The notes under the pieces: generated by a model
Told to the model about the DNA's origin: nothing
Databases searched by the model: none
What the model saw: the letters and a program-made list of their open reading frames with translations, nothing else
Shown: one piece after another, positions 5,402-44,700 of the stretch
Position numbering within the stretch: position 1 is the first letter of the stretch
Layout of the letters: each line of letters opens with the position of its first letter
Virus record (IMG/VR): IMGVR_UViG_3300043313_001352
Span: 50,035-114,034 of that record
Reading direction: 5' to 3' (one strand)
DNA length: 64,000 bases
Source of the DNA: a virus
Program-made: the position numbers and the translations under genes

Positions 5402-5486
5402 CGTCGCTCTCCTCCACGTTGATTGGTGATTCACCTGTTGCCAACCTACCGAGCCCGCCCCGCTGGGCTAGGCTCTCCCCGCCCTC

Positions 5487-5838
5487 GGCAAGTCGGGGCA
5501 AGGCTTGGCTTGGCATGGCAGGGCAGGGCTCCCCCTAGGCCAGGCGCGGTCAGGCAGGGTTCGGCTCGGTCAGGCAGGGCAGGTTCGGCAGGGCGCGGTG
5601 TGCTGAGGTCCGGCGTGGCGAGGTGGGGCAAGGCACGGCAGGCTCGGAGCGGCTCGGCACGGCTAGGCATGGTGAGGCAGGCACACCCAGGCGGGGTCCG
5701 GCAGGGCACGTCAGCATTTGGCAGGGCATGGCAGGTGGGGCAAGGCTCGGTGTGGCCTGGCGGCGTACGGCATGGTTGGGTTCGGTTCGGCGTGGCAGGC
5801 ACGGTTAGGCATGGCAAGGTGAGGCGTGGCGAGGCGCG
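5487..5838 (+). ncRNA. orphan GGY-NN pentamer mini-array (putative guide RNA precursor, ~6 units)
   Basis: Reads ggcaa ggctt ggctt ggcat ggcag ggcag ggctc... with GGCA-GGY punctuation, the same grammar as the 21.6-25.6 kb array but on the opposite strand. Confidence 0.75.
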
Positions 5839-5885: not shown

Positions 5886-6290
5886 ATGGGAGGGAACAAG
5901 CGCGGGTCGGTATTACGGTCACTGACCTGCCACTACTGCGGTGAGCGGGCCGAGGGCGAAGACCACATCGTGCCGCGAGCCGACCTGCCCAAGCCGCTCT
6001 CGAAGCTGCCCTACTGGTTCCGCGCCAACGACGTCGTTCCGGCCTGCCAGCCCTGCAACGGCGACAAGGCGTGGTTCAGGTCCGACTGCGTCTGCTCGCA
6101 CTGCACATGGGCTTGGTCCACCGCTCACGCGCTGTTCCTGCCCGAGGGCTACACCGAGCGCGGTTGGGTCGCCATCCAGCAGAACCCGACCATCGCGATG
6201 CCGCTCGCGGTCCCGCGCCCCGACCGGTCCGCCTACCCAGGCACCCGCGAAGGCCGGTCCGACCGCGAGTCCCAGGCCCTGTCGAACTAG
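5886..6290 (+). CDS. HNH endonuclease
   Basis: CHYCG...EDHIVP...NDVVPACQPCNGDK; leaderless start (TACTCT, 7 nt, ATG 5886). Confidence 0.85.
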   Translation: MGGNKRGSVLRSLTCHYCGERAEGEDHIVPRADLPKPLSKLPYWFRANDVVPACQPCNGDKAWFRSDCVCSHCTWAWSTAHALFLPEGYTERGWVAIQQNPTIAMPLAVPRPDRSAYPGTREGRSDRESQALSN

Positions 6291-20886: not shown

Positions 20887-21083
20887 TCACACCGCCCGCA
20901 TCGGGCAGTCCTTCGCGTGCCAGCCGTACTCACCGCAGTGCGTGCCGTCGGGGAACCTCGTCCCCGGACATGCCCGGACCTTGCGCAGATCCTCGCGCTC
21001 CTGTTCCTCCACGTACGCGGTCTCCGCTTCCTCGTCGCGGCGCCGGTACTCCTCGGCGAAGTCTGGGTCGTCGTAGTAGGAAC

Positions 21084-21554
21084 TCAGCTGGCTTCACCCG
21101 CGCTGGCACTGAGGTCGGTGAGCACCTCGTTGGCGAACTCCGCCATGTGCTCGTAGCGCTTCTTGAAGGATCGCCAGTCACGGCGCATCTGGCGCAGCAT
21201 CAGCTCGCGCTGGATCGGGTCCGTGATGACCTCCTCGATCGGCTCGTACGCCGAGGTCGGGCTGCCGTCTTCTCCACGGGTGACCCAGAACGCCCGGAGG
21301 TCGGCGCGCTTGTTGCCGACGTCGGCCTTGTACTTCACGCGCAGCAGGTTCCCGGCCTGGTGCAGCCGCCACTTGTGCGCGGCCACGTCGTCACGCCAGT
21401 CGAACCGGTGGTGCAGTGGGTGGTCAGGATTCGAGGCTTCCTCGACCACGACCTCTGGGGTCAGCAGCCCGCGCTTGTCTCGGATCGCCAGCAGCACGTC
21501 ACGCAGGTTCTCACCAGCGCTGGGCACTGGGGTCTCGTCGGTTCCGTTCGTCAT
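21084..21554 (-). CDS. conserved phage protein, putative accessory factor of the RAMP/GGY-NN array system
   Basis: LTPEVVVEEASNPDHPLHHRFDWRDDVAAHKWRLHQAGNLLR; directly follows the array on the same strand; RBS GGGAGG and possible -10 TACGAT (~21588-21583). Confidence 0.75.
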   Translation of the reverse strand: MTNGTDETPVPSAGENLRDVLLAIRDKRGLLTPEVVVEEASNPDHPLHHRFDWRDDVAAHKWRLHQAGNLLRVKYKADVGNKRADLRAFWVTRGEDGSPTSAYEPIEEVITDPIQRELMLRQMRRDWRSFKKRYEHMAEFANEVLTDLSASAGEAS

Positions 21555-21610
21555 TGCGTCCCTCCCGTTTCAGGTTGGTGAATCGTACCTCACCACACCC
21601 GTCTCGTCAG

Positions 21611-24600
21611 TAGCCGCGCCGGGCCACGCCGAGCCGTGCCCAACCATGCCTTGCCAATCCGCGCCTGCCGCACCTTGCCGCACCCACCTATCCATGCCGG
21701 TCCCAGCCTCACCACGCCTGCCTGGCCGCGCCACGGCGCGCCTTGCCCGGCCATGCCTTGCCAACCCCGCCTGCCTTGCCCGGCCGCGCCTAGCCTTTCC
21801 ACACCGCGCCTGCCCCGCCATGCCGAACCTGGTCACGCCTCGCCCAGACGGGCCTGCCAAGCCCAGCCCAGCCAAACCTTGCCTTGCCGCACCTGGCTGT
21901 GCCACGCCTGCCTGGCCGCGCCACACCCAGTCGTGCCAGGTCCCGCCTAGCCATTCCCTGCCTGCCTCGCCGTGCCTGACCGCACCCCACCATGCCTAGC
22001 CCCACCGCGCCTGCCATGCCGTACCAGACCTTGCCGAGCCAACCGGGGCTGCCTTGCCAAGCCCACCGCACCTAGCCCTCCGCGCTGCGCCTGTCCATGC
22101 CTAGCCCTGCCTGCCTCGCCATGCCGTACCGGACCCTGCCGGACCGGACCACTTCGGAACACACCTAGCCATGCCCTGCCGAGCCTGCCAAGCCACGCCC
22201 CACCGGACCCGACCACGCCTAACGCCACCTGGCCCCGTCAGTCCGTACCTAGCCACGCCTGCCTTGCCGTGCCGTGCCGGGCCTAACCCCACCCGACCAT
22301 GCCTTGCCTGCCGCGCCGCGCCCACCCGGCCATGCCTAGCCCCAGGTCACCTCGCCCAGCCTGCCTCGCCCAACCCGGCCATGCCTAGCCCTGTACGCCG
22401 CGCCACGCCTGCCGGACCAAGCCGCGCCTGACCGAACCAAGCCCCGCCGAGCCCACCTCGCCTGCCGGACCTGGCCGTGCCTGGCCTAGCCGCGCCCATC
22501 CATGCCCCGCCTGCCAAGACCCGCCGTGCCGTGCCATCGGTACCGAGCCCTACCAAACCACGCCTGCCGCGCCGTGCCAGACCGCTGCCGTGCCGACCAC
22601 GCCTAACCTTGCCCCGCCTGCCGTGCCATGCCCAGTCGCACCCTGCCGCGATCGCCATGCCCAGCCGTGCCGTTCCTGCCATGCCGGACCTCGCCCTCCC
22701 GGCCATGTCGTGCCCTGCCCCGCCTGCCCTGCCGAGACTGGCCGAGCCGTGCCATGCCTTGCTCACCTGGCCGTGCCGAGCCCGGACCCGCCTGCCTTGC
22801 CATGCCGGGCCGAGCCGTGCCTACCTGACCTAGCCCTGCCTGCCCAGCCACAGCTTGCCGTGCCTTGCCATCCGCGCCTCGCCTGCCGCACCCCACCTAG
22901 CCTGACCGAGTCATGCCCCGCCTGCCTCGCCTTGCCAGGACATGCCTTGCCACACCGCGGTGCACCAACGCCTCGCCTGCCAAGCCTTGCCTTGCCGTGT
23001 GCTGCCAAGCCGGGCCTGGACATGCCCACACGTGCCCTGCCGACCCGAACCACACCGAGCCATGCCTGCCGCGCCACGCCTTGCCTTGCCATGTCAACCG
23101 GGCCTGGCCCTGCCGCCCGCGCCTTGCCACGCCTGCCCGACCACACCACGCCTTGACCTACCCACGATGCCCCGCCTGCCGGGCCTAGCCCTGCCTTGCC
23201 AGACGATCCTGGCCGCGCCTGCCCTGCCTTGAGCGCCTTGCCTCGACCCGCCGTGCCAGGACTGCCGGACCGTACCGTGCCCAGCCTCGCCACGCCGTAC
23301 CTAGCCGCACCTGCCGGACCGTGCCTTGCCCAGCCACTCCATCCGTACCTAGCCTGCCGAGCCGTGCCTTGTCACGCCACGTCCCGCCCGGACTCGCCCC
23401 ACCGAGCCATGCCTGCCCAGCCGAACCACTCCTAGCCTGGCCATACCCTGCGCTGCCTGCCGTACCGAGCCACGCCGTACCGCGGAAGCCACGCCGATGC
23501 CTTGCCCCGCCTGCCGAGCCGTTCCTGGCCATGTCCCGCCGCGCCGTGTGCTGCCCCGCCTAGCCCCGCCTGCCGCGCCATGCCTTGCCGACCTTGCCTC
23601 GCCCAACCGTGCCAGACCTGCCCCGCCGCACCTAGCTGCACCGCACCAAGACCCGCCTGCCGCGCCTGGCCGAACCTTGCCATCCTTGCCCTCCGCGCCG
23701 CACCGAGACACGCCTGCCCAGCCCCGTCGTGCCATGCCTGGCCGCGCCCCACCTGACCAAGCCTGCCGAGCCGGGCCGCACCATCCTCGCCATCCGGTGC
23801 CGTGCCCCGCCTTGCCTGCCGCGCCGCGCCCTGCCAAACCTAGCCAAGTCGTGCCCTGCCATGACGAGCCGTGCCGGACCTGCCGTACCTCGCCACGCCC
23901 AGCTCCGCCGAACCTCCCGAGCCCAGCCATGCCTGCCGAGCCGAGCCGCGCCCCGCTTCGCCCTGCCAGGCCCGACCTTGCCATGCCTGCCACACCCGGC
24001 CTTGCCACATACTGCCGCGCCCACCGATCCTGGCCGCGCCCAGCCATGCCTGCCCGGCCCCGCCGCACCTCGCCATGCGCTGCGATACCACGCCACGCCC
24101 TCCGCGCCTGCCTGGCTCAGCCACACCGTCCCGTGCCACGTATCCCAGACCACGCCATGCCTGCCTCACCTAGCCCTGCCAAGCCCGGCCAATCCTGGAC
24201 GTGCCGGACCGAGCCAAGCCTGCCGGACCACGACGTCCATGCCCTGCCGCTGCCATGTGATGCCCTCCGCACCGAGCCACGCCTGCCTGACCGCACCAGA
24301 CCCGGCCGCACCCTGCCTAGACCACCGCGCCATGCCTGCCGTGCCGAGCCAGCCCTTGCCTCGTGAAGCCCAGCCCCGCCTCGCCGTGCCCAGCCAATCC
24401 GCGCCTGCCCCACCGATCCAAGCCCTGCCTTGCCTAGGCAAACCACGCCTGCCTGGCCTAGCCGGACCAAGCCGAACCCCGCCTATCCCCGACCCGCCTG
24501 CCGGACCGCACCTTGCCGTCCGCGCCGCGCCCAACGATGCCCAGCCACGCCTGCCGAACCGTGCCACGCCGTACGCCCCAAGCCGGACCCAACCTGCCCC

Positions 24601-25590
24601 GCCTCGCCTAGCCCAGTCTCGCCATGCCCAGCCTGGCCGTGCCCCGTTCACCGCGCCTGCCGAGCCTCGCCCCACCGACCTAGCCAACCCAGACCTAGCC
24701 TGCCGCGCCTCGCCCAGACAAACCATCCTCGCCGGACCGCCCGCACCTCGCTGCGCCAAGCCTGCCGCGCCACGTCATGCCACAGCTCGCCGCCCGTACC
24801 AAGCCTCGCCTGCCCCACCTCACCTAGCCAGGACGCGCCGGACAGCACCACGCCTCGCCACACCTTGCCTGCCGGGCCGCACCGAACGATGCCGAAAGCC
24901 ACCAAGCCCAATCATCCGAGCCGCACCACGCCTGCCTTGCCCGGCCGGACCGGACCGCGCCGTACCCGCCCCTGACAAACCCTGCCTAGCCCTGCCAGCT
25001 CCCTGCCATGCCTGGCCTGCCAGACCACGCCCCTCCGAACCTGGCCACACCATGCCCTGCCTCGCCTGCCGTGCCCGACCCTGCCAACGACGCCTAGCCC
25101 TGACACACCATGCCCTGCCTGCCACGCCGTGCCCAACCAAGCCCGGCCGGTCCCTGCGATGCCTTGCCATGCCAAGCCTGCCGTGACCCGCCTTGCCACG
25201 CCCCGCTTGCCCCGACGCACCTGGCCTTGCCTAGCCTGCCGAACCTAGCCGAGCCACACCATGCGTAGCCCCGCCGGACCAACCCGAGCCCCGCCCTGCC
25301 TGCCGCGCCTGGCCGTTCCCAGCCCACCAAGCCACACCGTCCCGGCCAAGCCTGGCCGTGCCAAGCCTGCCCAACCGCGCCTGGCCAGACCAAGCCAAGC
25401 CGTGCCATCCGCGCCTTGCCGACCACTCCGTGCCGCGCCCCGCCTGCCGGGCCTGGACTCGCCGTGCCATGCCTAGACCTGCCTGCCATGCCGCGACGAC
25501 CGGGCCAAGAATCCCATGCCCCGCCCCGCCTAGCCTGCCCCGCCGAGCGATGCCCTGCCGCGCCTAGCGTTGCCATCCCGTGCCTGCCGT
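21611..25590 (-). ncRNA. ~4-kb GGY-NN pentamer guide array (about 75-85 units of ~7-15 pentamers separated by GGCA-GGC); VIPR-like RNA array
   Basis: The + strand parses as NN-RCC pentamers (tagcc gcgcc gggcc acgcc gagcc gtgcc caacc atgcc ttgcc...) with a recurrent gcc-tgcc punctuation. The NN content is unique per unit, and the ORFs here are low-complexity artefacts. Confidence 0.85.
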
Positions 25591-25601
25591 GTCCGGACGT
25601 G

Positions 25602-25644
25602 GGACGAGGCAGGACGCACCCCCCAGTGGCGCCCTGCCTCGTCC
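25602..25644 (-). other. hairpin between the RAMP-like gene and the array (leader/processing or attenuation element)
   Basis: Perfect 12-bp inverted repeat ggacgaggcagg (25602-25613) / cctgcctcgtcc (25633-25644). Confidence 0.65.
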
Positions 25645-25659
25645 GGCTCTGAGCTGAGG

Positions 25660-26343
25660 TTACTTGACCTCGACCGAGCGCGTCGGGTCGATCATGAAGG
25701 TGCCCATGTCGCCCTTCTTCTCCGGGCGCCACTCACCGACGCCGACACCCAGGCCACCGGCCTCGATCAGCGAGAGCACGCTCTCGCGGGTCAGCATCGA
25801 CTTCACGTACGTCACCTCCAGCACCGTCGACCACTCGGTGAACTGCGGCCGGTAGCGCAGGTCGGTGCCGCCGTTGCCGACGCGCACGACGTCCTCGCGC
25901 ATGATCGGCTCGCCCTCGATCCGGACCATCATCTGGCCCTCGGTCTTGGACATCTCGCCGGAGAAGAACAACGTCTGCCGGAGGCTGACCATGGTCACGC
26001 TCTTGTCGAAGAACCTCGCAGCGCTGACGGTCGCGGCCTTGAACGCGATCGAGGGGAACCCGTAGCCGCCGTCGTCCATCTTGTAGGCCGCGGCCTCGTA
26101 GTCGCCCTCGGGGTCCTTGGGCGCCTTCGGGCTCTTGCGGCCCTGCATCGCATCCAACATCTGCCTCTTCGCCTTCTCGCTGAACTTGTGCATGATCAAC
26201 GGCGCGGAGCCGACGATCGGGATCAGCAGCGTCTCGGTGCCGATCCGGGAGATCTCGATCGCCGGTGCGCTCTCGTCCTCGGCGGGAGGAGGAGTCGCTG
26301 CGGTCTTCTTGGCTGCGGTCTTCTTGGCAGGCTTCGTGGCCAT
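25660..26343 (-). CDS. RAMP/Cas7-like RNA-binding protein (Vipr-like effector)
   Basis: GSAPLIMH (beta1), GFPSIAFKAATVSAA (cf. RAMP IPGSSLKGxxR) and a C-terminal Gly-rich loop GGLGVGVGEWRPEKKGDMGTF. RBS AAGGA before ATG 26343; lies immediately upstream of the array. Confidence 0.75.
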   Translation of the reverse strand: MATKPAKKTAAKKTAATPPPAEDESAPAIEISRIGTETLLIPIVGSAPLIMHKFSEKAKRQMLDAMQGRKSPKAPKDPEGDYEAAAYKMDDGGYGFPSIAFKAATVSAARFFDKSVTMVSLRQTLFFSGEMSKTEGQMMVRIEGEPIMREDVVRVGNGGTDLRYRPQFTEWSTVLEVTYVKSMLTRESVLSLIEAGGLGVGVGEWRPEKKGDMGTFMIDPTRSVEVK

Positions 26344-32349: not shown

Positions 32350-35300
32350 CTAGGTGTTGAGGAAGGAGGTCGTCAGGTAGATGACGTCACCGTTGGCCAC
32401 GGTGCCGATCGTGACTCCACCGCCAGAAGAGATCTGACAGTTGACTACCGTGTTGGTGCCGTTGCGGGCGAGGAGGTTGACGGAGATTACTGGGCGTCCA
32501 GCAGTCAGCGGGATCGTCGCCATGGTCGTACCCGAGCCTGAGGCGCGCGAGAAGGTTCCTCGGAAGTAGACCTGCTCTCCGATGATCTTGTACGCAGGCA
32601 CGATGTTTCCAGCACCCCACCCCGCTCCGTACGCGAAGGAGTTCCAGCCACCACCTTGCGCGGAGTCGGCAGGCATGGACTCATCAGTGGCCCACTCGAT
32701 CCTTCCGGCGTCGATGTTGAAGTACGCGACCAGCACCCAGTTGTTCGGCACCGTGAAGTCGCTGAGGTAGTTCGTGTACCGGAAGTTTGCGGCCAGTGAG
32801 GTCGCAGCAGACCCGAAGGGGATCTCGTACCAGAGAACGTCCCATGAACTCATAGGGACGCCTGCCGAGGTGACCGTCTTTTGAGTGGCCCCGCCGAAGT
32901 TCGGGATCACCGTGCCAACAGGCGGCATGGTGATCTCGAAGTAGCCAGAAGGGGCAAGGTTGACGCTTCTACCGATACTCATCGGCATGAACCGCGCAGA
33001 CCACGAGATGTTGTAGTTGATGTCAACGACCTTGACACCGCCACCAGAGAGTTGTGACTGGGCACGGATGGAGTAGTACAGCTGCTCAAACGCCTTGCCA
33101 GTGAAGGAAGTCGCGCCAGCGCCTCCGACGTCCAGGGTCTCGAAGTGAGCGACACCGTCACCAGTGAGCTTGATCTTGGGGAACCCGCCAGTGCCTGGTG
33201 CGTTGGACTCCCATGAGGCTGGAGACGCAGCGATGAAGCTGGTGAGCAGCGGCGGCGCATCGGTGTCACCTACGGCACCGACGAAGTTCGGGGTGCTGAC
33301 GGTCGAGTACGTCGCTCCGACTCCAGACGGCAGGAACGCAGGCTGCTCAGGCTGCAGGATGAAGTCAGTCCGGATCGGCGTGATGTTGAGCGCCGCCCGA
33401 GTCAGGTAGAACCGGAACGAGTTCACATCGTTGACAGTCCGTGCCGTGCCCTTACCTGCAGCCGGGTCTGGCAGGTCCGGCACCGTGACGGTCAGCCGAG
33501 CCCGCTTCTTCATCGTGATCGAGGCGTACGCCGAGGCGTTCGACTCCTGGATGGCCCCTTGGGAGTCGTACCAGGTGAACGCTCCCCACCAGATCGAGGG
33601 ATCCGTGGCTGCCCAGGTGATCCCGGTGTAGTTGTAGAACTGCGGGCCGTCAGTGGCCGGAGCGGCCGTGAACCTCGTGAACGCACCAGTCAGCACATCT
33701 CCACACGCGCTGACACTCCGGGTCGCTGGGACCGCTGGGAACTCCAGGTCGACCAGACGCGCGGGCGAGGCAGCGTCAGTGAAGACGTAGTTGTTCACCG
33801 TCCCGTGGATCACCCAGATGTCCCGGTCGGTCGTCTCGAAGCCCATCCGCTGCGAGGAGCCGTAGGTGACACCGCACAGATCCTCGTCCTGGGCGAAGAA
33901 GGATGAGTTGATGGTCTTCGTGGCGCTCGGGGTGATCGTGGTGTCGGTGAAGGCCAAGGTGGCGAGTTCAATGGTGCCACCGGGCCATGGTGCGAACATG
34001 TTCCGCTTGGCTTGCGCGACCATGTGTGCGCGGGTAGCACCGGTCGCTGAGAAGCACCGTCCCAGCCGCCATTGCCAGAACCAGGAGAAGGTACCGTCCT
34101 GACGCTCGGCCTTCTTGATCGGGGCGAGAGTGCCCGAGGTGTTCATCGCTGAGTCGTCCCAGCTGGTGATCATGTACTTCTCGTCGCGGGCTCCAACGTA
34201 CCCAGCGGTGCGGAAAAATCCGTTGGTGACCTGTCGCTCAAGCCCACCAACAGCGATGACTGAGTTGCCATGGAAGGTGTAGTACGCAGCTGTCTCCCCG
34301 TTGCTGTTCGCGACGCGGGGGACCTGCCACCAGGTGGTCCCCTTCTTCATCGTCGCGTCGTCGAAGAATGTGTTCGCACAACGGAACGAGCCAGTGGACT
34401 CAGCACTGTCCAGGTGGAAGCCCCAGAACGGGTCACACCACTGTCCCCGTGCGAACGCGGACTGGGGGTAGTCCGTGCCCAGCGAGGGACCTGAGGTGGC
34501 ACCCACGGTCTGGGTCTGCAGGATGGTCTTGGAGCCCATCGCGAAGGTCGACTGGCCGCGGACATCCATCCCCTGGCCGACCGTGAGCCCGCGTGCCATG
34601 ATCTGCGCGTCGATCACCGAAGGCTTCTGTGGATCGTTGGGCAGGTCGACCCGGATCGAGACACCATCGGAGCCGTACTGCCTCAAACCCTCGCTGGACA
34701 GCTCCATCCGCTGCCCGGACTCAGCCGTCTTGATCTTCCCGATGATGGCGAGGTCAGCGTCCAGCTTCGCGCCCTTGATCTGAATCGCGTCCACCAGGTT
34801 GGTGTAGATGTAGCCGTCGGAGATGTCGGCCTCGGTGATCTGACGCAGGGTGGCCGAGCCAGCAGTACCGGGAGCAGCGGAGTTGAACCCGCCACCGATC
34901 TTGGCGTCCTTGGCGACGATCCGCACGTAGTAGGTGACCGAGCCGTCCTTGACCAGGAAGGTGCCGTCCGCCAGCTGCTCACGGATCGTGTAGGAGGTCG
35001 CCGTGGTCTCGATCTGCAACGTCGCTGCCGATGGCGTGAACGTGGCACCGGTGGTAGCGCAGTGCACCTCGTAGGTCACCGTGTCGTGGTTGAGGATCGC
35101 AGGCCACTTGATCCCCAGCGAGGAGACCGAGCCCGTCACCGTAGCTGCGGGTGAGGACGCAGGCGCAAGAGCATCGGGCGTGGCGGCGTTGTACGCCGAG
35201 TCAGCCGTGGCCGGGACGTTCGAGCTGGCCACAGTGAGCAACAGGTCGAAGATGCCAGAAGCAGCCGGGATGTCTGTCTCAGGCACCAGCGTGGTGTTCC

Positions 35301-38300
35301 AGCCTGTCTGCCAGGTGTCAGGTGGCAGGGTGTGTGAGATCTCGGCATCCACTGCTGTGATCTTCGGGTACTGCCAGTAGTTGCTGGCTGCCTGCGAGGT
35401 CAGGATGATGACCAACGTCCCGGTGGAGATGCGTCGAGCTACCCGAACCCCAATCGGCAAGTTGCCGGTGTTCACTCCCGTCGCGTTCGCGACTGAGGGC
35501 GGTGGACCTGCGTAGGAGTAACCGGATGTCTCCAGGTTGAAGGTCCCCTGGGTGGAGGCGTAGTTGAACCCCGAGAGCTTGATCTTGTACATCCGGTTGG
35601 TGAACGTGATCGGGGTGTCGATCACGATGTTGCCCGTCAGGTTCCCAGCCGCGTTCGCGTAGCTGGTCACGTCTCGGAACAGCTTCCCGTTGGCCCCGAT
35701 CAGCGAGATCTTGGGCAGCGCCTGAGAGGCAGCCGTGTAGGAGGAACTCTTGGAGACCCCGGTGTAGGTGAAGGTGAGGTTCGAGTAGGTGATCTTGTTG
35801 GTGGTGTACAGCTCGGTGTTGGTCAGGTAGCCAGGCTCGGTCGGGACCCAGGGAGCCACTGGAGTTGCCACCACCGGTACGGCAGGTGCTGCTGCTCCAA
35901 CAGGAGTCACCGTGGCGTAGTACGGAGTGACCGCCGTGATGCTGACACCCTGGGCACCAGCACCACCGGTCGAGCCCTGTGCTCCCGTGTAGGAGACAGA
36001 CCAGGCGAAGGTCTTGGTGAAGCTGACACCTCCGACCGTGATCGGAACCGTCAGAGTGCCGCTCTGGGTCACCAGAGCCGTCGTGACCGTGGCTGTGAAC
36101 TGCGCCGTCAGACCGGGGTTGTTCTGGTACGTGATCGTCATGCCGGTCGGCGCACCAGTGATCGTGCCGATCGTGGCGGACTGCTGGACGGCGCCCTTGT
36201 ACGCCAGCACCTGACTGGTTGTGAACCCGGCCACTGCAGCAGAGACGGTGCCGGGGAACACCTGAGCTTCGTTGGTCAGGACGACCGTGACTGCGTCCGC
36301 GCCTACGAAGCCAGAAGAGCCGTCGGAGATCTTGGAGATCGTCATGGTGTCGGTGACACCCGACGCGCCCGTTGCCTTGATGGCCAGAGTCTTCGCAGTC
36401 ATGATCGCGCCGGTGACGGTCACGACATTGCCCGCCACCGAAGCGTAGATCGGAGCAGCACCAAAGGTGCCGCCGTCTGCACTGAACGTCCACGTCGAAA
36501 TCGTGGTGCCGGTGGGAGTTCCGGTGATCACTGCCGTTGCAGGAGTTGTCGTAGCAGGTGCGACTGTGAAGTTGTCCAGCCTGCCAGCGTTGACGCCGAA
36601 GTTGTAGAGACCGTGTCGGGTGCCTGTGTAGGTGGCATCGGTGGCGGTCACTACCGTCACGTCGTTGATCTTGCCTTGCAGTGTTGAGCCAGACGCGGTG
36701 ATGGAGACCTTGTCGCCGAGCACGGCCAATGCCGTGGACTGGCCAATGGTCGTGTACGTCTCGGCACCGTACGCCCCTGCTGACCGATAGATCTGCAAGG
36801 ACCCGTTGTTGTTGATGACCAGCACGTAGCCGTTCAGGTTGGTCAAGTTGTGCCGGAACGCTATCCCTCCAGAGAGTAGGCCGGTGATGACAAAGGAGAC
36901 GGTGACGTCCGCGGTGCCACACTCCACGTCCGCGTAGGACTGACCACCCGTAGCGCCAGCCGTCGCGATGTACGCCTTGCCGCCGCTGACACCCCACACC
37001 GAACTGTTGTCGTTGCGCCACGCCTGACCCGTCTCAGTGGTACCGAGCGAGGTGGTTGAGTCTCCACGGTTGAACGAGTCGAGGATCGTGGGAGCAGGAG
37101 CAGACAGTGCCTGTGTGGTGGCGGTCAGGTCAACGATCGTGGCCGCCGCGCCAGTCGCTCCACCCGCACCTGTGAAACTCAGCGCCCACGTGAAGACCTG
37201 GTTGAACGTCATTCCGCCCACGGTCACTGGGATGGTGAACGTTCCAGTCGCTGTTGCCAGAGCAGTCGTCACCGTGAAGGTGATCAGAGGTGCTGTAGTC
37301 CCGTTGTTGGTCACCGCTGCTGTGATGCCGGTAGCGCCACCAGTGATCGTTCCGACCGTGGCTACCTGAGCCACCGTGCCCTTGTACGCGATGACCGTCG
37401 TGGTCGCTGTCGTAGCCAGCGCGTTGGTGAGACCAGCAGGGAAGCTCTGTGACTCGTTGGACAGCAACACGGTATAGGCGTCTGCTCCTGCGGGACCTGA
37501 TGGTCCCGTGCCTCCGGTGGCGCCAGTTGCACCGGTGAGCACCTTCGCCACCGTGAGCGAGTCCGCGACACCCGCGTTGTTGCCTGCCCGCACCGCGATC
37601 GTGCTGGCCGTCATCGTCGCCCCGGTGATGGTCACCACGTTCCCGGCGATCGACACGCCAGGTGGTGCTGTCCCGGACCAGGCACCGCTGTTGACGCTGT
37701 AGTCCCACACCGTGATCGTGGTGTTGACCGGGGTGCCCGTGATGGTTGCCGTGGCCGGGGCGGTAGCACCGGTCCCACTTGCAGGAGAGACCAGAACCTG
37801 AGCCGTCGAGGTCAGCGTGATCGTGGCAGCGTTAGATCCAGGAAGACCCTGTGGACCTTGGGTCTGGGTCCACTCGTACAGGTTCGCATCGGTACTCTCG
37901 ACGGCGGTCGTCTGGTTGTACGCGAGGCCCATGTGAGTGCCCACAGCGCTGTCGGTGACGTTCTTGACAGCGTGGTAGACCTCCTTGATGAAGACCTTGA
38001 TTCCGACAGCCTTGTTGTACGACAGGAGAGCGAGACGGACAGCAGTGGGAGCGCCCGCTGGAACGGTTGCCACACCGCTGTAGTCCGCGTAACTCGTGGT
38101 GATTCCACTGGGCTGCAAGCTAGTGAAGCGAACGACTTCTGTAGTACCGGCAGCGTTCAGCAGGATCGCGTAGATCCCCGACCCATCCCCTATGACGGTG
38201 CTTCTCATCCTGATGCGGAGGTAGATCACGTCGCCCGGAACCACGTCAAGCGTCTGCATGGCCGTGGCGCCATTCGTTGCGAGAAGGCCAGAAGTGAGGG

Positions 38301-41300
38301 CGAGAGCACCTTCGGTTGCATCCCACGCGACCGTGTGAGCAGCGTTGTACCACTGCATCCCGTTAACGCTGCGCTGCCAGTCAGCGGGCAGCGTCGGGTC
38401 AACCGTGTCCAGCTTGGCGAAGTCACCGTTACGGATGATGTCGTTGCCGTACTTGATCCAGGTGTAGGTGGGCTGTCCGTTAGGACCAATGGGACCTTGC
38501 ACGCCCTGGTTTCCCTGGGGACCTTGGATCAGTGACCAGTCATAGTCGGTGTAGATGGACGACTCAGTGGCAGAGGACTTGTTGTAGGCCAAGCCCATGT
38601 AGATCTTGCCTGCAGGTAGGTCACTCATCCCCGTCGAAGGCGTGTCCGCGTACTTCAGCCACGTGTAGGTGGGCAGACCGTTCGCGCCGGTCGGACCTTG
38701 GATCCCTTGAGACCCGGTGGCACCGGTGAAGGCCAGCGACCAAGAGAAGATCTGGTTGAAGGTCAGCCCGCCTACGGTCACCGGGATGGTAAAGGTCCCC
38801 GTGGCCGTGCTCAGTGCTGTCGTCACGGTGAAGGTGATCAGTGGCGCGGTGGTGCCGTTGTTGGTCACCGCTGCGGTGATGCCGGTAGCGCCACCGGTGA
38901 TCGTCCCGACCGTAGCGGTTTGTGCCACCGTGCCCTTGTAGGCGATGACGGTGGAAGTGGCAGACCCCGCTAGAGCGTTGGTGAGCCCAGCAGCAAAGCC
39001 CTGAGACTCGTTGCTGAGGAGGACCGTGTAGGCGTCAGCACCTGCAGGTCCAGTGCTGCCAGTAGAGCCGGTAGCACCGTCGGAGACCTTCGCTACGGTC
39101 AGCGTGTCACTGTTGCCGGAAGCCCCGATCGCCTTCACCGCGATGGTCTTGGCCGTCATGGTCGAGCCAGTGATCGTGACCACGTTCGATGCAGCGGGCC
39201 TGGAGACACCAGGTGGAACGGTCCCGGAGAAGGCAGCTCCGTCCACGCTGTACTGCCAGCCTGCCGTGGAGTCCGGGATCGTGGTGTTCGTCGCTACAGC
39301 CGTCACTGTCGCAGTCGCGGGTGTGATCGTTCCGCCTACACCAACTGCCAGCACCTGCGTGCTCGCTGTCAGGTCGACAGTCGAGGCAGGAGCACCAGCC
39401 ACACCCTGGGAGCCTTGTGGACCCTGAGGGCCTTGGATGAGCGACCACTCATAGTCGGTAGGAACGGTCGTCTCGGTAGCAGTGGTCTTGTTGTAGGCAA
39501 TACCGATGTAGGTCTTGCCTGCGGGCAGGTCGGAGATGTCAGCGACGATCGGGGTAGCGCTGGTGGCGTACTTGATCCAGGTGTAGGTGGGCTGTCCGTT
39601 CGGACCAGTCGGACCTTGCAGACCGGTGTTGCCCTGTGGGCCAGTAGTCAGGTTCCACTCATAGTCGGTGTAGATGCTGGACTCGGTAGCAGTGGTCTTG
39701 TTGTAGGCGATACCCAGGTACGGCTTGCCAGCAGGCAGGTCGCTCATCCCGGTGGTAGGCGTGTCGGCGTACTTGACCCAGGTGTAGAGCTGCTGCCCGT
39801 TCGGCCCGATCGGACCTTGCACACCTTGAGACCCGGTCAGACCCAGCGACCAGGAGAAGGTCTTGGTGAAGGTGATCCCACCGACGGTGATCGGCACCGT
39901 CAACGAACCTGAGGTGGTCACCAGCGCGGTGGTCACCGTGACGGTGAAGCCAGCCGCCGTCGTGCCGTTGTTGGTCAGTGCCGTAGTCAGACCAGTGACC
40001 TGCCCGGTGATCGTGCCGATCGTGGCCGTCTGCTGAACAGTCCCCTTGTACGCCAGCACCTGGCTGGTGGTTGATCCAGCGACAGCTGCGGTGGTGGAGC
40101 CAGGGAACACCTGGGCTTCGTTGGTCAGCTGCACGGTGTAGGCATCAGCGCCCGCACTGCCGTCCATGGACTTGGCCACGGTCAAGGTGTCAGCGACCCC
40201 GTTGGCGTCGGACATGCGCACCGCGATCGTGCGCGCGGTCACGGTGCCGCCGGTGACGGTGACCACGTTGCCGCTGCGCGAGACGCCCGTGGGGACCGAG
40301 GTCGAGAACACCCCACCGTCGACGCTGTAGTCCCACACCGTGATCGTGGTGTTGATCGGGGTGCCGGTCACCACGGCCGTCGTGGGCGTGGTGGCCCCTC
40401 CGGTCGCCGGGGAGGTCAGAACCTGGCTGGTCGAGGTCAGGCTGATGGTCGCAGCGGGAGTGCCAGGCACGCCGTTGGCACCGATCGGCCCGGCGAACGA
40501 CAACGACCAGCTGAACACCTGGTTGAACGTGATGCCGCCTACCGTGACCGGGACGGTGAAGGTCCCGTTGGCAGTGACCAGCGCGGTAGTGACCGTGAAC
40601 GTGATCAGGGGTGCCACAGTGCCGTTGCTGGTCACCGCGGCGGTGATGCCCGTGGCTCCGCCGGTGATCGTCCCGACGGTCGCGGTCTGCTGCACCGTCC
40701 CCTTGTAGGCGATCACCGTCGTCGTCGCCGTTGCGGCCTGAGCGTTCGTGGTACCAGCGGTGAAGGTCTGCGACTCGTTCGAGAGCACGACGGTGTACGC
40801 GTCGGCTCCTGCCGCACCGGTCGCACCGGTCGAGCCGTGCGCGGAGACCGAGTAGGCAGTCGACGTCGTGGTGTCGGAGTAGGTGGTGATCGTGCGCGTC
40901 CACAGGAACTGTCCAGGGATGGTCGCCTGCGGCGTCGATTGCCACGTCCCGACTGGTGCCGTCGTGCCGGTCGAGCCGACCTGGTAGGTGACCGCAGTGC
41001 CGGTGACACCGACACCTGGTGCCCCGGTGGAGCCCGAGGTGCCGTGTGCGGAGACTGAGTACGCCGTCGAGCTGGTGGTGTCGGAGAAGGTCGTGACCGT
41101 CCTGGTCCACAGGAACTGCCCAGGGGAGGTGGCCTGCGGACTGGACACCCAGGTGCCTGTCGGCGCAGTGGTGCCGGTTGAACCCACCTGGTAGGTGACG
41201 GTGGTGCCGGTGACGCCAACGCCCGGCGCTCCGGTACCGCCAGTGCTGCCGGTGGCGCCGTCGGAGACCTTGACCACGGTGAACGTGTCGGCCAGCCCAG

Positions 41301-44300
41301 CAGCATCGGCCATCTTGATCGTGATGGCCCTCGCCGTCATGGTCGTGCCGGTGATCGTCACGACGTTGCCGGTGCGACTCACACCCGCAGGAAGCGCGGG
41401 CAAGAAAGTGGCGCTACCGTCCACGCTGTAGGTCCAGGCCGTGATGGTGGTGTTCGTGGCGACACCTGTCACGGTGGTCGTTGCGGGAGTGGTGGCTCCC
41501 CCGGCTGCAGGGACCGCCAACACCTGCGAGGTAGCAGTCAGCGAGATGGTCGGAGCAGCGGCACCAGGCACACCCTGGGAGCCTTGTGGACCTTGCGGTC
41601 CTTGGATCAGCGACCAGGTGTAGTCGGTAGGAACCGTGGTCTCCACGGCAGTGGTCTTGTTGAACGCGAACCCGATGTAGGGCTTGCCTGCCGGGGTATC
41701 GACCAGCCCGCCGCCATTGATGTCATCGGCGTACTTCACCCAGGTATAGGTGGGCTGACCGTTAGCCCCAGCAGGCCCCTGGATGCCCATGTTCCCCTGA
41801 GGCCCCTGGATCAGGCTCCAGTCATAGTCCGTGTAGATGCTGGACTCGGTAGAGCTGGTCTTGTTGTATGCCACACCCATGTAGGTCTTACCGGCAGGCA
41901 GATCGCTCATCCCAGTAGTCGGCGTATCGGCGTACTTCAACCACGTGTAGAGGCTTGCTCCGTTAGCACCAGTCGGACCCTGGATGCCTTGTGATCCTGT
42001 TGGACCTGGTGGTCCTTGGATGAGCGACCACTCATAGTCCGTGGTGATCGTGCTCTCTGCAGCCGTGGTCTTGTTGTACGCGATGCCCATGTAGGTCATG
42101 CCGACCGGAGAGTCACTGATCTGTGGAGTGGTGGGCGCTCCGTTGGGCGCGTACTTGATCCAGGTGTAGGTCGGTTGCCCGTTGGGACCGATCGGCCCCT
42201 GGATCCCCGTGTTCCCCTGGGGTCCCTGAATCAACGACCATTCGTAGACGTTGTAGTTGACGCTGTCCTCGGTCTGGGTCGTCTTGTTGTAGGCGATGCC
42301 CATGTACTTCTTGCCCGTGGGGTCATCGTTCATCCCCGTGGTGGGGGTGTCCGCGTACTTGATCCAGGTGTAGGTCGGCAAGCCATTCGCACCGACAGGC
42401 CCCTGGATGCCCTGTGAACCCTGAGGGCCTTGCGGACCCTGGATGAGTGACCACTGGTAGTCGGTGGGGATCGTCGTCTCGGTGGGCGTGGTCTTGTTGA
42501 ACGCGAGACCGATGTAGGTCATCCCAGCCGGTACATCCACGATCTGGCCAGCGGTGGGGTTGCCGTTCGGTGCGTACTTGACCCACGTGTACGTGGTGAC
42601 ACCATCAGCCCCAGGAGTACCTGGGATGCCCTGGTTTCCTTGTGGACCCTGGATCAAGCTCCAGGTGTAGTCGGTGTACACCGTGGTCTCAATCGCTGAG
42701 GTCTGCCCAACCGCGATCCCCATCCAGGTCTTGCCCGTAGGAGAGTCAGACATGTCAGCAGGGATCGGAGTAGCGCTGGATGCGTACTTCAACCAGGTGT
42801 AGTAGGTGATCCCCGGAGAGCCTTGGATGCCCTGAGAGCCAGCGGGTCCTGGTGGGCCTTGGATCAAGGCCCACTCATAGTCGGTCGTGACCGTGGACTC
42901 TGTGGCCGTCGTCTTGTTGTACGCGATGCCGATGTAGCTCATCCCGACCGGCGAGTCGCTGATCTGGCCGGTGGTGGGTGCTCCGTTGGGCGCGTACTTG
43001 ATCCAGGTGTAGGTCGGTTGCCCGTTGGGGCCAGTGGGTCCTTGCACACCGGTGTTGCCCTGGGGGCCTTGAATCAACGACCAGCCATAGTCGGTGTAGA
43101 TGCTGGACTCGGTGGAGCTGGTCTTGTTGTACGCCAGACCCATGTAGGTCTTCCCGGCTGGGAGATCGCTCATCCCAGTCGTCGGTGTGTCGGCGTACTT
43201 CAGCCAGGTGTACATCGGCTGGCCGTTGGGACCGGTCGGTCCTTGGATTCCTTGTGACCCGACCGCGCCAGCGAGGCTCAGCGACCAGGCGAACGCCTTG
43301 GTGAACGACTTGCCGTCTGCCGTGATAGGCACCGTCAAGGTGCCGTTGACGGCCGTCAGCGCCGACGTGACATCAATCGTGAAGCCCGCCGTGGTGGTGC
43401 CGTTGTTGGTCAACGCGGTGGAGATACCTGCCACCTGGCCGGTGATCGCACCGATCGTGGCCGGGATCTGGGTGACGCCCTTGTAGGCGATCACCTGGCT
43501 GGTGGCGCTCGCGCTCACCGCAGCTGTGGCCGTTCCCGCGAAGCTCTGCGCCTCGTTGGTGAGCAGGATCGTGTACGCATCGGCGCCAGCCGGTCCGGTG
43601 CCACCTGCTGCGCCGTCGGAGATCTTCGCGATGGTCATGGTGTCTGCGTTGCCAGCAGCGTCAGCTGCCTTCACCGAGATCGTCTTGGCCGTCATCGTGG
43701 CACCAGTGATGGTCACGCTGTTGCCGGTGCGGCTCACTCCGGCAGGGACCGTTCCGGAGTAGGTGGCTCCGTCCACCCCGTAGGTCCAGTTGATGATCGT
43801 GGTGTTGATCGCTGCCCCGGTCACCGTGGTCGTGGCTGGGGTCGTCGTACTACCGCTCGCAGGCACGGCCAGCACCTGCGAAGTAGCCGTCAAGGTGATG
43901 ATGGCTGCGTCGGATCCAGGTGGGCCTTGGAACAAGCTCCACTCATAGTCGGTGGCGACGGCGCTCTCGACGTCGGTGCTCTTGTTGTAGGCGATACCGA
44001 TGTAGGTCTTGCCTGTCGGGGAGTCGCTCAGCCCAGCTCCGGTGGCGCTGTCGCCGTACTTGATCCAGGTGTAGGTGGGCTGACCGTCGGGACCCGCCGG
44101 GCCGGGTATGCCGGGCTCGCCGGGCTCTCCGGGCGTACCGGCGGGACCAGGCGTGCCACGGATCGGACCGATGTTCGACCACCCGGTGCCGGTCCACTTC
44201 ACACCATCGCCGACCGCAGCAGCGGTGCCGTCCATGGCCGGAGGGACCCAGCCAGGCACCGGCGTACCGACGATCCAGATCTGGCCCGGTAGGGGAGCGG

Positions 44301-44700
44301 TGGGTGCCGTCTGGGGTGTGGTGCCGATGATGCTGACGCTGGCGCCGCTGTTGCCCGTCAGACCGGACGGACCAACCGGTCCCGTGGGTCCGGTGGCTCC
44401 GCGCGGCCCGGTCGCACCGATCTGGCCTTGCGCACCCTGGGATCCTGTCGGCCCCAGCGGACCAGGGACGCCGACCGGGCCAGTCGGTCCGGTCGGACCC
44501 AGAGCACCCGGTGTGCCGACCGGCCCGGTAGGGCCAGGAACACCCTGTGGCCCCTCGGTGCCGGGGATGACCAGGTCGATCTCATTGGGATCGCTGGAGA
44601 CCAGGTTGACGCTGACCCGCGGCTCTCCGGAGATGATGTCCAGCTCGATCTCCCCCAGGACGCTGGACAGCGTCACATTGTCCGTATTGTCAACGGTCAT
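32350..44700 (-). CDS. giant (4116 aa) tail fibre/adhesin with collagen-like and tandem beta repeats
   Basis: Gly-X-Y segments alternate with >12 copies of TYTW(I/L)[22 protein letters not shown]...DY.WSLIQG and Ig-like DAYTVxLxNE repeats; CBM-like, FN3-like and C-terminal tip domains. Confidence 0.9.

What the first reader, a model, noticed from the sequence alone, without database searches (positions are those of the whole stretch)
21084..26343. Phage RAMP/Cas7-like protein + 4-kb GGY-NN pentamer array + accessory gene: a compact non-CRISPR RNA-guided system
Seen in sequence: on the minus strand a 227-aa gene (25660-26343) is followed by a 12-bp hairpin and ~4 kb of strictly 5-nt-periodic GGY-NN units. 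These are divided by a 4-nt GGCA (giving GGCAGGC) into roughly 80 non-identical units of ~35-75 nt, and a conserved 156-aa gene follows. Established knowledge: the protein has RAMP/Cas7 hallmarks (beta1 PLxxH, P-S-x-x-K helix, C-terminal Gly-rich loop), and Cas7-type proteins polymerise on RNA with fixed nucleotide periodicity. Inference: each protomer binds one GGY and presents the NN for pairing, and each GGCA-delimited unit is one guide. From memory, this matches the recently reported viral 'VIPR' systems (not verifiable here). There are no cas1/cas2 genes and no classical repeat-spacer array.
Basis: partly seen in the sequence, partly recalled or inferred. Interest (0 to 1): 0.97.

Follow-up and report, generated by a model that had tools for sequence, protein, structure and literature searches.

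The report
Phage VIPR system with giant guide array
A 114-kb phage of high-GC bacteria carries a VIPR system, a CRISPR-related RNA-guided DNA silencer first described in 2026; the class is already known, but its ~4-kb array of about 72 different guides is the largest among 161 related loci compared.

Summary

- **Protein.** The 227-aa protein matches the solved SUSP1 Vipr protein (PDB 36pp) by profile at E 1.3e-12 over nearly its full length. Its model folds like Cas7/Csm3/Cmr4 (Z up to 10.8). It keeps the residues that read G-G-Y in the published cryo-EM structures (H52, R165, E204, W205, R206).
- **Array.** It lies at 21606-25588 on the minus strand and has 822 units, 82% with perfect GGY. 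71 GGCA|GGY junctions cut it into about 72 unique guides, mostly 9-13 units. This matches the published 'staggered array' with 1-nt overlaps.
- **Synteny.** Of 161 homologous loci, 143 have a same-strand array and 2 an opposite-strand one. The 156-aa partner gene is adjacent in 149 of 162.
- **Selection.** Against a sister phage the array is collinear. GG and NN positions change less than Y3 or third codon positions.

No cas1, cas2 or CRISPR array is present. Natural targets were not found, and expression and processing are untested.

Verdict: a new member of a known kind, notable for array size and for two extra remote arrays. This scan has noted VIPR loci before on other DNA (379 notes, at least 292 genomes).

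The parts
25660..26343 (-). vipr gene: 227-aa minimal RAMP. Residues 1-28 form a disordered Lys/Ala/Pro-rich tail. The RRM core starts near residue 36, the thumb hairpin is about 146-168 and the G-loop about 196-207.
   Evidence: phrog_4652 at 1e-40, no Pfam hit. PDB 36pp_D 'SUSP1 Vipr protein' at E 1.6e-5 and 1.3e-12. AF2 model pLDDT 79.5. Cas7/Csm3/Cmr4 fold matches.
25602..25644 (-). Leader hairpin between the vipr stop codon and the first array junction. The stem contains GGCAGG and its complement.
   Evidence: RNA fold -47 kcal/mol, z -2.7. A similar hairpin lies at the same place in L051 and L005. Its function was not tested.
21606..25588 (-). Staggered vrRNA array: 822 GGY-NN units cut by 71 GGCA|GGY junctions into about 72 unique guides. 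Most guides have 9-13 units.
   Evidence: Collinear with the 3.5-kb array of sister phage L051. Substitution rates: G1 1.2%, G2 2.3%, N4 3.5%, N5 5.8%, Y3 9.2%.
21084..21554 (-). vap-like accessory gene, 156 aa. The model shows an N-terminal winged-helix-like domain (about 14-108) and a 45-residue C-terminal helix.
   Evidence: phrog_15946 at 1e-27, no Pfam hit. A homologue is adjacent to vipr in 149 of 162 related loci. AF2 pLDDT 87.5. Only weak winged-helix matches: Z 5.2-6.2, Foldseek E above 0.3.
5466..5837 (+). Second, remote GGY-NN array of about 6 guides with the same GGCA|GG junctions. It is 16 kb from vipr, on the other strand, just upstream of an HNH-motif gene.
   Evidence: Genome-wide array scan and tiling.

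Best explanation
This is a VIPR (Viral Interference Programmable Repeat) locus of the 'staggered array' kind, carried by a 114-kb tailed phage of high-GC, probably actinobacterial, hosts.

**Shown here**
- The 227-aa protein belongs to the Vipr family of minimal RAMPs and keeps the residues that grip G1, G2 and Y3.
- The array is built from GGY-NN pentamers on the gene's own strand.
- The junction GGCA|GGY, a GGCAG pentamer overlapping the next by 1 nt, divides it into about 72 different units of guide length.
- The protein, the array and the 156-aa partner travel together across more than 140 loci.
- GG and NN positions are conserved more than Y3 and synonymous sites.

**Inferred from the published SUSP1 and P. 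fulva work**
- The array is transcribed with vipr and cut or trimmed at the junctions into RNAs of about 45-65 nt.
- Vipr protomers polymerise, one per pentamer, flipping out GGY and presenting NN.
- Each filament binds double-stranded DNA whose sequence reads NN-x-NN-x (1-nt skip, usually codon-phased) and blocks transcription.
- The partner protein, perhaps a dimeric winged-helix DNA binder, enhances the effect.
- The likely targets are competing phages, satellites, prophages or host genes. They are unidentified here.
For: **Family membership**
- Profile A3 against PDB 36pp_D (SUSP1 Vipr): E 1.3e-12, profile positions 19-199 against chain residues 4-189. The single sequence gives E 1.6e-5.
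- Published contact residues align as follows: H17 with H52, R138 with R165, D177 with E204, W178 with W205, R179 with R206. All five are invariant in the close-relative alignment A1.
- RAMP fold.

**Array grammar**
- Tiling and junction counts.
- It fits the published 9-16 YNNGG units and the staggered, 1-nt-overlap legend.
- Across 130 related loci, 66% of 1159 junction spacings are 5n+4. Peaks fall at 44, 49, 54, 59 and 64 nt.

**Synteny**
- 143 of 161 loci have a same-strand array of at least 100 nt; 2 have an opposite-strand one.
- The partner gene is adjacent in 149 of 162 loci.

**Selection**
- Substitution rates against L051.
- Guides are unique.

**Context**
- No self-target above shuffles, as the paper reports for its own systems.
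- No Cas1 or Cas2 in the phage.
- Virus record with tail-fibre genes as neighbours.
Against: - There are no expression, processing or binding data for this locus.
- By the paper's text, staggered arrays were not among the architectures confirmed by small-RNA sequencing.
- No consensus promoter or terminator was found around the locus.
- 18% of units have an imperfect GGY.
- 28 of 70 junction intervals carry an extra internal 4-nt unit, 40% against 17.5% family-wide. That should break a 5-nt register, so some guides may be decayed or work differently.
- The partner's winged-helix call rests on scores within the noise range.
- The substitution-rate comparison used guide pairs preselected for at most 15% mismatch. 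Its comparison with codon position 3 is therefore biased low; the within-pair class contrast is not.
Confidence: 0.9

Rival explanations
1. The locus is a VIPR system, but most of the 4-kb array is inactive. On this view the tract was inflated by unequal crossing-over at the GGCAGGC junctions and is now decaying, and only a minority of units still work as guides.
For: - 18% of units have an imperfect GGY and there are 46 internal 4-nt units other than GGCA.
- Extra internal slips occur in 40% of guides here against 17.5% in relatives.
- Degenerate G2 positions differ from the sister phage at 29%.
- An adjacent duplicated guide pair shows that expansion by duplication happens.
- Whole-guide insertions and deletions separate this array from L051.
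Against: - NN positions change at 3.5-5.8%, against 9.2% at Y3 and 13.1% at vipr third codon positions.
- The irregular 4-nt units are themselves conserved between the two phages.
- Guides are all different rather than recent copies.
- The published systems also show frequent internal degeneracy.
Confidence: 0.25
2. The tract is a structural DNA or RNA element and the neighbouring RAMP gene is unrelated to it. Candidates are a G-quadruplex-prone G-rich strand, a recombination or packaging signal, or a decoy or sponge for a rival's Vipr.
For: - The strand is 48% G with GG every 5 nt.
- The October 2026 preprint describes satellite-encoded solo vrRNAs that redirect a phage's VIPR to decoy sites.
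- This phage also has two arrays far from vipr.
Against: - Arrays sit on the vipr strand in 143 of 161 loci, against 2 on the other strand.
- GG is conserved while NN is unique per unit but under constraint.
- Unit lengths are quantised at guide size.
- The protein keeps the GGY-reading residues.
Confidence: 0.04
3. The array region is protein-coding. Long ORFs run through it, and in Gordonia phage Pipp the homologous tract is annotated as a gene.
For: - ORFs of up to 485 aa overlap the tract on both strands.
- Pipp gp43 is annotated over the array.
Against: - A period of 5 with frequent 4-nt slips cannot hold a reading frame.
- Lag-3 periodicity falls to 0.24 inside the tract, against 0.33 in flanking genes.
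- ORFs on both strands are expected in stop-poor GC-rich repeats.
- In ODay and Saal the same kind of tract is intergenic.
Confidence: 0.01

Closest known systems
VIPR systems with staggered vrRNA arrays (bioRxiv 10.64898/2026.04.26.720920, text and legend of fig. S18)
   Same: - A lone minimal RAMP (Vipr) plus one accessory gene.
- GGY-NN pentamer guides on the gene's strand.
- Consecutive guides overlap by 1 nt, so the end of one is the start of the next.
- No ribozyme (Rfam gave no hit) and no conserved 3' tail.
- Viral host element.
   Different: - The array is about 4 kb with about 72 guides. The texts I read describe four vrRNAs in SUSP1 and small arrays elsewhere.
- It is the largest of 161 related loci. 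Their median is 353 nt, the 95th percentile 1.6 kb and the maximum 3.5 kb, in a sister phage.
- The array lies between vipr and the partner gene, not after both as in most relatives.
- The same genome has two further remote arrays.
- The VIPR type (I-VII) could not be assigned, because the figures and data tables are not held.
Type II VIPR of Escherichia phage SUSP1 and the Pseudomonas fulva prophage (experimentally characterised; PDB 36pp, 36PK)
   Same: - Homologous protein, E 1.3e-12 over nearly its full length.
- Same G1, G2 and Y3 contact residues, with D177 replaced by Glu.
- Guide length of about 10-12 pentamers.
   Different: - SUSP1 vrRNAs are separate ~100-nt transcripts, each ending in a conserved pseudoknotted 3' tail. 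Here guides abut with no tail.
- This protein has a 35-residue N-terminal extension, with a Lys/Ala/Pro-rich tail in residues 1-28.
- Sequence similarity is low. Only the C-terminal 56 residues align by single-sequence search.
Cas7-family backbone subunits of Class 1 CRISPR-Cas (Csm3, Cmr4, type VII Cas7, Cas7-11 domains)
   Same: RRM core, thumb hairpin and Gly-rich loop. Foldseek E 6e-6; VIA Z 10.8 with rmsd 3.7 over 156 residues to 6s6b_I, and Z 10.7 to 9g9a_D. Both are expected to polymerise on a guide RNA with a fixed nucleotide period.
   Different: - Sequence identity is 8-13%.
- The period is 5 nt with 2 paired bases, not 6 nt with 5 paired.
- There is no repeat-spacer array, no Cas6 or Cas5 handle, no large subunit, and no cas1 or cas2.
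- The published action is DNA binding and silencing, not cleavage.

Membership tests
VIPR (Vipr + vrRNA + vap) | Vipr protein: a minimal single-RRM RAMP with thumb and G-loop, homologous to the published Vipr proteins | tested here: met
   36pp_D SUSP1 Vipr at E 1.3e-12, near full length. Cas7-like fold, Z up to 10.8. The model shows one RRM core, a beta-hairpin at 146-168 and a Gly loop at 196-207.
VIPR (Vipr + vrRNA + vap) | Residues that read G1, G2 and Y3 (SUSP1 H17, R138, D177, W178, R179) | tested here: met
   They align with H52, R165, E204 (Asp to Glu), W205 and R206. All five are invariant among close relatives.
VIPR (Vipr + vrRNA + vap) | Adjacent same-strand tandem GGY-NN (YNNGG) repeats, about 9-16 units per guide, with NN hypervariable | tested here: met
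   822 units, 82% with perfect GGY. Guides have 8-18 units, mode 11, and all differ. The same holds in 143 of 161 homologous loci.
VIPR (Vipr + vrRNA + vap) | Small two-gene locus with an accessory vap gene predicted to act on DNA | tested here: inconclusive
   A conserved 156-aa partner is adjacent in 149 of 162 loci. This meets the 'accessory gene' part. The DNA-binding prediction rests on weak winged-helix matches, Z 5.2-6.2. Homology to any of vap1-6 could not be tested.
VIPR (Vipr + vrRNA + vap) | Not associated with a CRISPR array or adaptation genes; mostly viral | tested here: met
   No Cas1 or Cas2 in the 114-kb record. No repeat-spacer array. IMG/VR virus record, 92% complete, with tail genes alongside.
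VIPR (Vipr + vrRNA + vap) | vrRNAs are expressed, processed and co-purify with Vipr | not testable with these tools
   This needs small-RNA or RIP sequencing.
VIPR (Vipr + vrRNA + vap) | Targets follow the 1-nt-skip rule (NN-x-NN-x) on double-stranded DNA | tested here: inconclusive
   No enrichment of 1-nt over 0- or 2-nt skip in 1.3 Mb of own and related DNA or in the phage's own genome. Exact-pattern scans found nothing beyond chance.
Type II VIPR array architecture (SUSP1-like) | Each vrRNA ends in a conserved structured 3' tail | tested here: not met
   Guides abut directly at GGCA|GGY with no intervening conserved sequence. The locus is therefore filed under the staggered architecture, not the SUSP1-like one.
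CRISPR-Cas Class 1 effector module | Repeat-spacer array plus cas operon (Cas5, Cas6, large subunit, Cas1/Cas2) | tested here: not met
   None found. Only the Cas7-like fold is shared.

The most novel reading that the evidence does not exclude
The giant array, with two remote arrays, is a working library of about 80 distinct guides. On this reading the phage silences many targets at once, whether rival phages, satellites or host defence genes.

- Guide boundaries would be set by a mechanism not yet described: the 4-nt GGCA unit breaks the 5-nt Vipr filament register, so each filament, and then each trimmed RNA, ends at the junction without a ribozyme, a Cas6-like handle or a 3' tail.
- The array would evolve by gain and loss of whole guides at any position, not by polarised acquisition as in CRISPR.
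Probability: 0.3. Interest if true: 0.6.

Novelty: new member of a known kind. Interest (0 to 1): 0.42.

Why it matters
VIPR was described only in 2026, and the experiments cover systems with one to four guides per locus.

- **A natural test case.** A phage with about 72 different guides in one uninterrupted staggered array bears on two open questions. One is how tail-less, ribozyme-less arrays are cut into guides. The other is how guide repertoires grow and turn over without Cas1/Cas2.
- **Evidence on guide evolution.** The sister-phage comparison shows that guide content is maintained by selection and that whole guides are gained or lost at internal positions.
- **Annotation.** These tracts can be mis-called as genes, as in Gordonia phage Pipp gp43.
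- **Distribution.** The same clade is present in well-studied Mycobacterium and Gordonia phages, where the system could be tested in laboratory strains.

Tried and rejected
**Natural targets**
- Five of the phage's own guides and one guide of Mycobacterium phage Saal were converted to 1-nt-skip patterns of 18-24 specified bases. A trimmed HNH-like core of one of them was also scanned. All gave 0 exact matches in IMG/VR contigs.
- One 22-base guide gave 0 matches in JGI metagenomes.
- The 18-base HNH-like core gave 8 metagenome hits. All were chance-like: low-GC contigs, in-frame stops, not HNH genes. This shows that the scan works on N-rich patterns.
- The Saal guide in 401 Mycobacteriaceae-family genomes at up to 3 mismatches gave 8 hits, 7 at one homologous site, against 2 for the reversed control. 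That is about the chance expectation.

**Skip-rule test**
- On 1.3 Mb of local DNA there was no difference between 0-, 1- and 2-nt skips.
- The apparent 3-nt-skip signal is only array matching array.

**Self-targeting**
- None above shuffles.
The match reproduces at 19 of 24 bases, but p is about 0.03 among 32 guides, so it is not significant.

**Decoding guides into peptides**
- This was done, but no database was available to test the motifs. I make no target-class claim.

**Partner protein**
- Pfam, a PDB profile search and the ESM Atlas gave no named family.

**Other checks**
- Rfam gave no hit in the window.
- The sigma-70 promoter and intrinsic terminator scan gave nothing.
- No Vipr-partner complex prediction was run, because I make no binding claim.
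Full report
**What is there**

On the minus strand a 227-aa gene (25660-26343) is followed by a strong hairpin (25644-25602). The 96-nt leader folds at -47 kcal/mol, z -2.7. About 4 kb of pentamer repeats follow.

Lag-5 autocorrelation in the tract is 0.52, against 0.25 in a coding control. The edges are sharp near 25600 and 21600, and codon-type lag-3 periodicity is lost inside.

A dynamic-programming tiling gives 822 units:
- 699 of 5 nt, 120 of 4 nt and 3 of 6 nt;
- 672 units begin with a perfect GGY;
- 74 of the 4-nt units are GGCA.

GGCAGGC occurs 66 times and GGCAGGT 5 times. Spacing is 39-135 nt, median 53. This cuts the tract into about 72 units, mostly of 9-13 pentamers.

The NN strings of these units are no more alike than shuffled controls. 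One adjacent pair at 23240-23354 is a diverged tandem duplication. A 156-aa gene (21084-21554) follows, with its own ribosome-binding site.

Two corrections apply: there are about 72 units, not 80, and the periodicity is not strict.

**What the protein is**

Pfam finds nothing, and PHROGs gives only an unnamed family (phrog_4652, 1e-40).

Against PDB sequences the protein hits one meaningful entry, 36pp chain D, 'SUSP1 Vipr protein':
- E 1.6e-5 with the single sequence;
- E 7.7e-7 with a close-relative profile;
- E 1.3e-12 with a 36-sequence profile, covering chain residues 4-189 of 202.

The AlphaFold model has pLDDT 79.5 and pTM 0.73. Foldseek matches only Cas7-type RAMPs, with Csm3, type VII Cas7 and Cas7-11 domains at E down to 6e-6. 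In a Foldseek-independent search the top 32 rows are all CRISPR RAMPs; Cmr4 6s6b_I gives Z 10.8 and Csm3 9g9a_D gives Z 10.7.

The cryo-EM preprint names the residues that hold G1 (H17, D177), G2 (R138, W178) and Y3 (R179). In the alignments these correspond to H52, E204, R165, W205 and R206. All five are invariant in the close-relative alignment.

The family is large: 3633 clusters at 50% identity reach E 1e-3 or better.

**What the literature says**

VIPR systems are described in bioRxiv 10.64898/2026.04.26.720920, with these features:
- a minimal RAMP (Vipr);
- an accessory vap gene;
- vrRNAs of 9-16 YNNGG repeats;
- recognition of double-stranded DNA by the NN dinucleotides with a 1-nt skip;
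- transcriptional silencing of competing phages and satellites;
- seven types.

Array architectures include 'staggered arrays with overlapping vrRNAs', in which individual vrRNAs derive from 1-nt overlapping positions. The junction here is exactly that: a GGCAG pentamer whose last G is the first G of the next GGCNN.

The paper states that the hammerhead-interspersed and single-vrRNA architectures were confirmed by small-RNA sequencing. Staggered arrays are not in that list.

**Evidence from relatives**

*Named phages.* tblastn finds the protein in Gordonia phages Pipp, UmaThurman, ODay and Ecliptus (58-61% identity). It is also in 27 Mycobacterium phage records (about 45%), one cyanophage and one Pseudomonas phage. 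Pipp, ODay and Saal each carry a short staggered array beside the gene. It is downstream in Pipp and ODay and upstream in Saal.

*All loci.* I compared 161 homologous loci: 3 named phages, 79 IMG/VR contigs and 79 bacterial genome contigs.
- 143 have a same-strand pentamer array of at least 100 nt; only 2 have an opposite-strand one.
- Most loci without an array are short contigs or distant homologues (33-38% identity).
- Pooled junction spacings (1159, from 130 loci) are 66% of the form 5n+4. Peaks fall at 44, 49, 54, 59 and 64 nt. The junction-to-junction unit is therefore a discrete, length-constrained object of guide size.
- The 156-aa partner has a homologue next to vipr in 149 of 162 loci. 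The usual order is vipr-partner-array. Here, in L051 and in a few others it is vipr-array-partner.
- Total array length has a median of 353 nt, a 95th percentile of 1.6 kb and a maximum of 3.5 kb (L051). The present array, about 3.98 kb, is the largest.

*Likely hosts.* The closest bacterial carriers are Actinomycetota: an Acidimicrobiales MAG (72%), Kribbellaceae, Thermoactinospora, Micromonosporaceae, Streptomyces, Nocardia and Microbacterium. More distant members lie in Alphaproteobacteria and Firmicutes.

**Selection and turnover**

L051 comes from a 177-kb viral contig whose Vipr is 96% identical. Its 3.5-kb array is collinear with this one. Most guides are shared in the same order, and about a dozen whole guides are present in one array only, at internal positions.

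In 33 equal-length guide pairs, differences per site are:

| Position | Differences |
|---|---|
| G1 | 1.2% |
| G2 | 2.3% |
| N4 | 3.5% |
| N5 | 5.8% |
| Y3 | 9.2% |
| vipr third codon positions | 13.1% |

GG is strongly constrained, Y behaves as a free C/T choice, and NN is constrained. This is what guides that must keep both their protein grip and their specificity would show. One caveat applies: the pairs were preselected for at most 15% mismatch, which biases the comparison with the gene but not the contrast between position classes.

Positions that are degenerate here are often canonical in the sister phage (G2 of degenerate units differs at 29%). Some irregularity is therefore recent decay.

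**How it most likely works**

*Shown:* family membership, array grammar, co-orientation, co-inheritance and selection.

*Inferred from the published systems:*
- The array is transcribed with vipr and resolved at the junctions.
- Vipr polymerises, one protomer per pentamer, flips out GGY and presents NN.
- The filament binds NN-x-NN-x double-stranded DNA and blocks transcription.

*My own inference:* a 4-nt GGCA unit cannot be accommodated in a 5-nt filament register. It may therefore define filament ends and trimming sites.

The partner model has pLDDT 87.5. It shows a small winged-helix-like domain plus a 45-residue helix. The matches are weak, Z 5.2-6.2 and Foldseek E above 0.3. 'DNA-binding dimer' is only a lead, though it agrees with what the paper predicts for several vap families.

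**What remains open**

- *Targets.* No natural target was found. See 'tried and rejected'.
- *Internal slips.* 28 of 70 junction intervals contain an additional internal 4-nt unit, more than twice the family rate. These units are conserved in the sister phage. Their effect on filament register is unexplained.
- *Transcription signals.* No consensus promoter or terminator was found. Relatives with the array last often end it in a strong hairpin, while here and in L051 a hairpin precedes it.
- *Type.* The VIPR type could not be assigned without the paper's figures and data files.

**Verdict**

This is a genuine VIPR locus, so a new member of a known kind. It is not new as a class: there are three 2026 preprints, and this scan has already logged 379 VIPR-type notes in at least 292 genomes, including other multi-kb arrays. 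Its points of interest are the record array size among the loci compared, two additional remote arrays in the same genome, and the comparative evidence on how such arrays evolve.

Noticed in passing
window 5466-5837 (+): A second GGY-NN array of about 6 guides with the same GGCA|GG junctions. It is 16 kb from vipr, on the opposite strand, directly upstream of a gene with an HNH-type motif (about 5887-6290). It appears to be a 'solo' vrRNA locus inside a VIPR-positive phage.
   Followed up: partly
window 5734-5793 against 5954-5989: One guide of the second array, read in antisense, resembles the adjacent gene's E-D-H-I-V-P-R motif: 19 of 24 NN bases. The shuffle p is about 0.03 among 32 guides, so it is not significant after multiple testing. 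A trimmed core of this guide gave only chance hits in metagenomes.
   Followed up: yes
outside the window: genome C1 34363-34422 (-), about 15.6 kb before the window start: A third, single-guide array of 12 consecutive perfect GGY-NN units.
   Followed up: partly
L001 7617-7841 (Gordonia phage Pipp, MN234179.1 about 33093-33362): The gene annotated as gp43 'hypothetical protein' is a staggered vrRNA array rather than a coding sequence. In ODay and Saal the equivalent tracts are intergenic.
   Followed up: partly
window 26260-26343 (-), residues 1-28 of the Vipr protein: A disordered Lys/Ala/Pro-rich N-terminal tail (pLDDT below 50). SUSP1 Vipr lacks it, so that H17 there corresponds to H52 here. 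It resembles the basic tails of actinobacterial nucleoid proteins. This comparison is from memory and was not tested.
   Followed up: no
window 21606-25588 (-): The choice of Y is coupled to the next base. After GGC the counts are A 127, G 105, T 85 and C 39. After GGT they are G 42, C 36, T 19 and A 10. GGCCT occurs once. No explanation was found.
   Followed up: no
window 23240-23354 (-): Two adjacent guides are a diverged 49-nt tandem duplication (TRF, 79-86% match). This is the only clear sign of guide birth by duplication in the array.
   Followed up: partly
window 32350-44700 (-): A single 4116-aa ORF with a 207-bp tandem repeat at 40834-41235. It may be a giant tail or tape-measure-type protein. 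It was not examined.
   Followed up: no
window about 20891-21080 (-): Just after the partner gene's stop codon, a short frame encodes a Cys/His-rich C-terminus (C-x10-H-C-x9-C, read by eye). It has no canonical start codon giving more than about 45 aa. It might be a small zinc-ribbon ORF. This was not verified.
   Followed up: no
L164-L170 (seven Mycobacteriaceae-family genomes): A guide of Mycobacterium phage Saal matches one conserved chromosomal coding site at 19 of 22 NN bases in seven genomes. The total hit count was near the chance expectation (8 against 2 for the reversed control), so no conclusion is drawn.
   Followed up: partly
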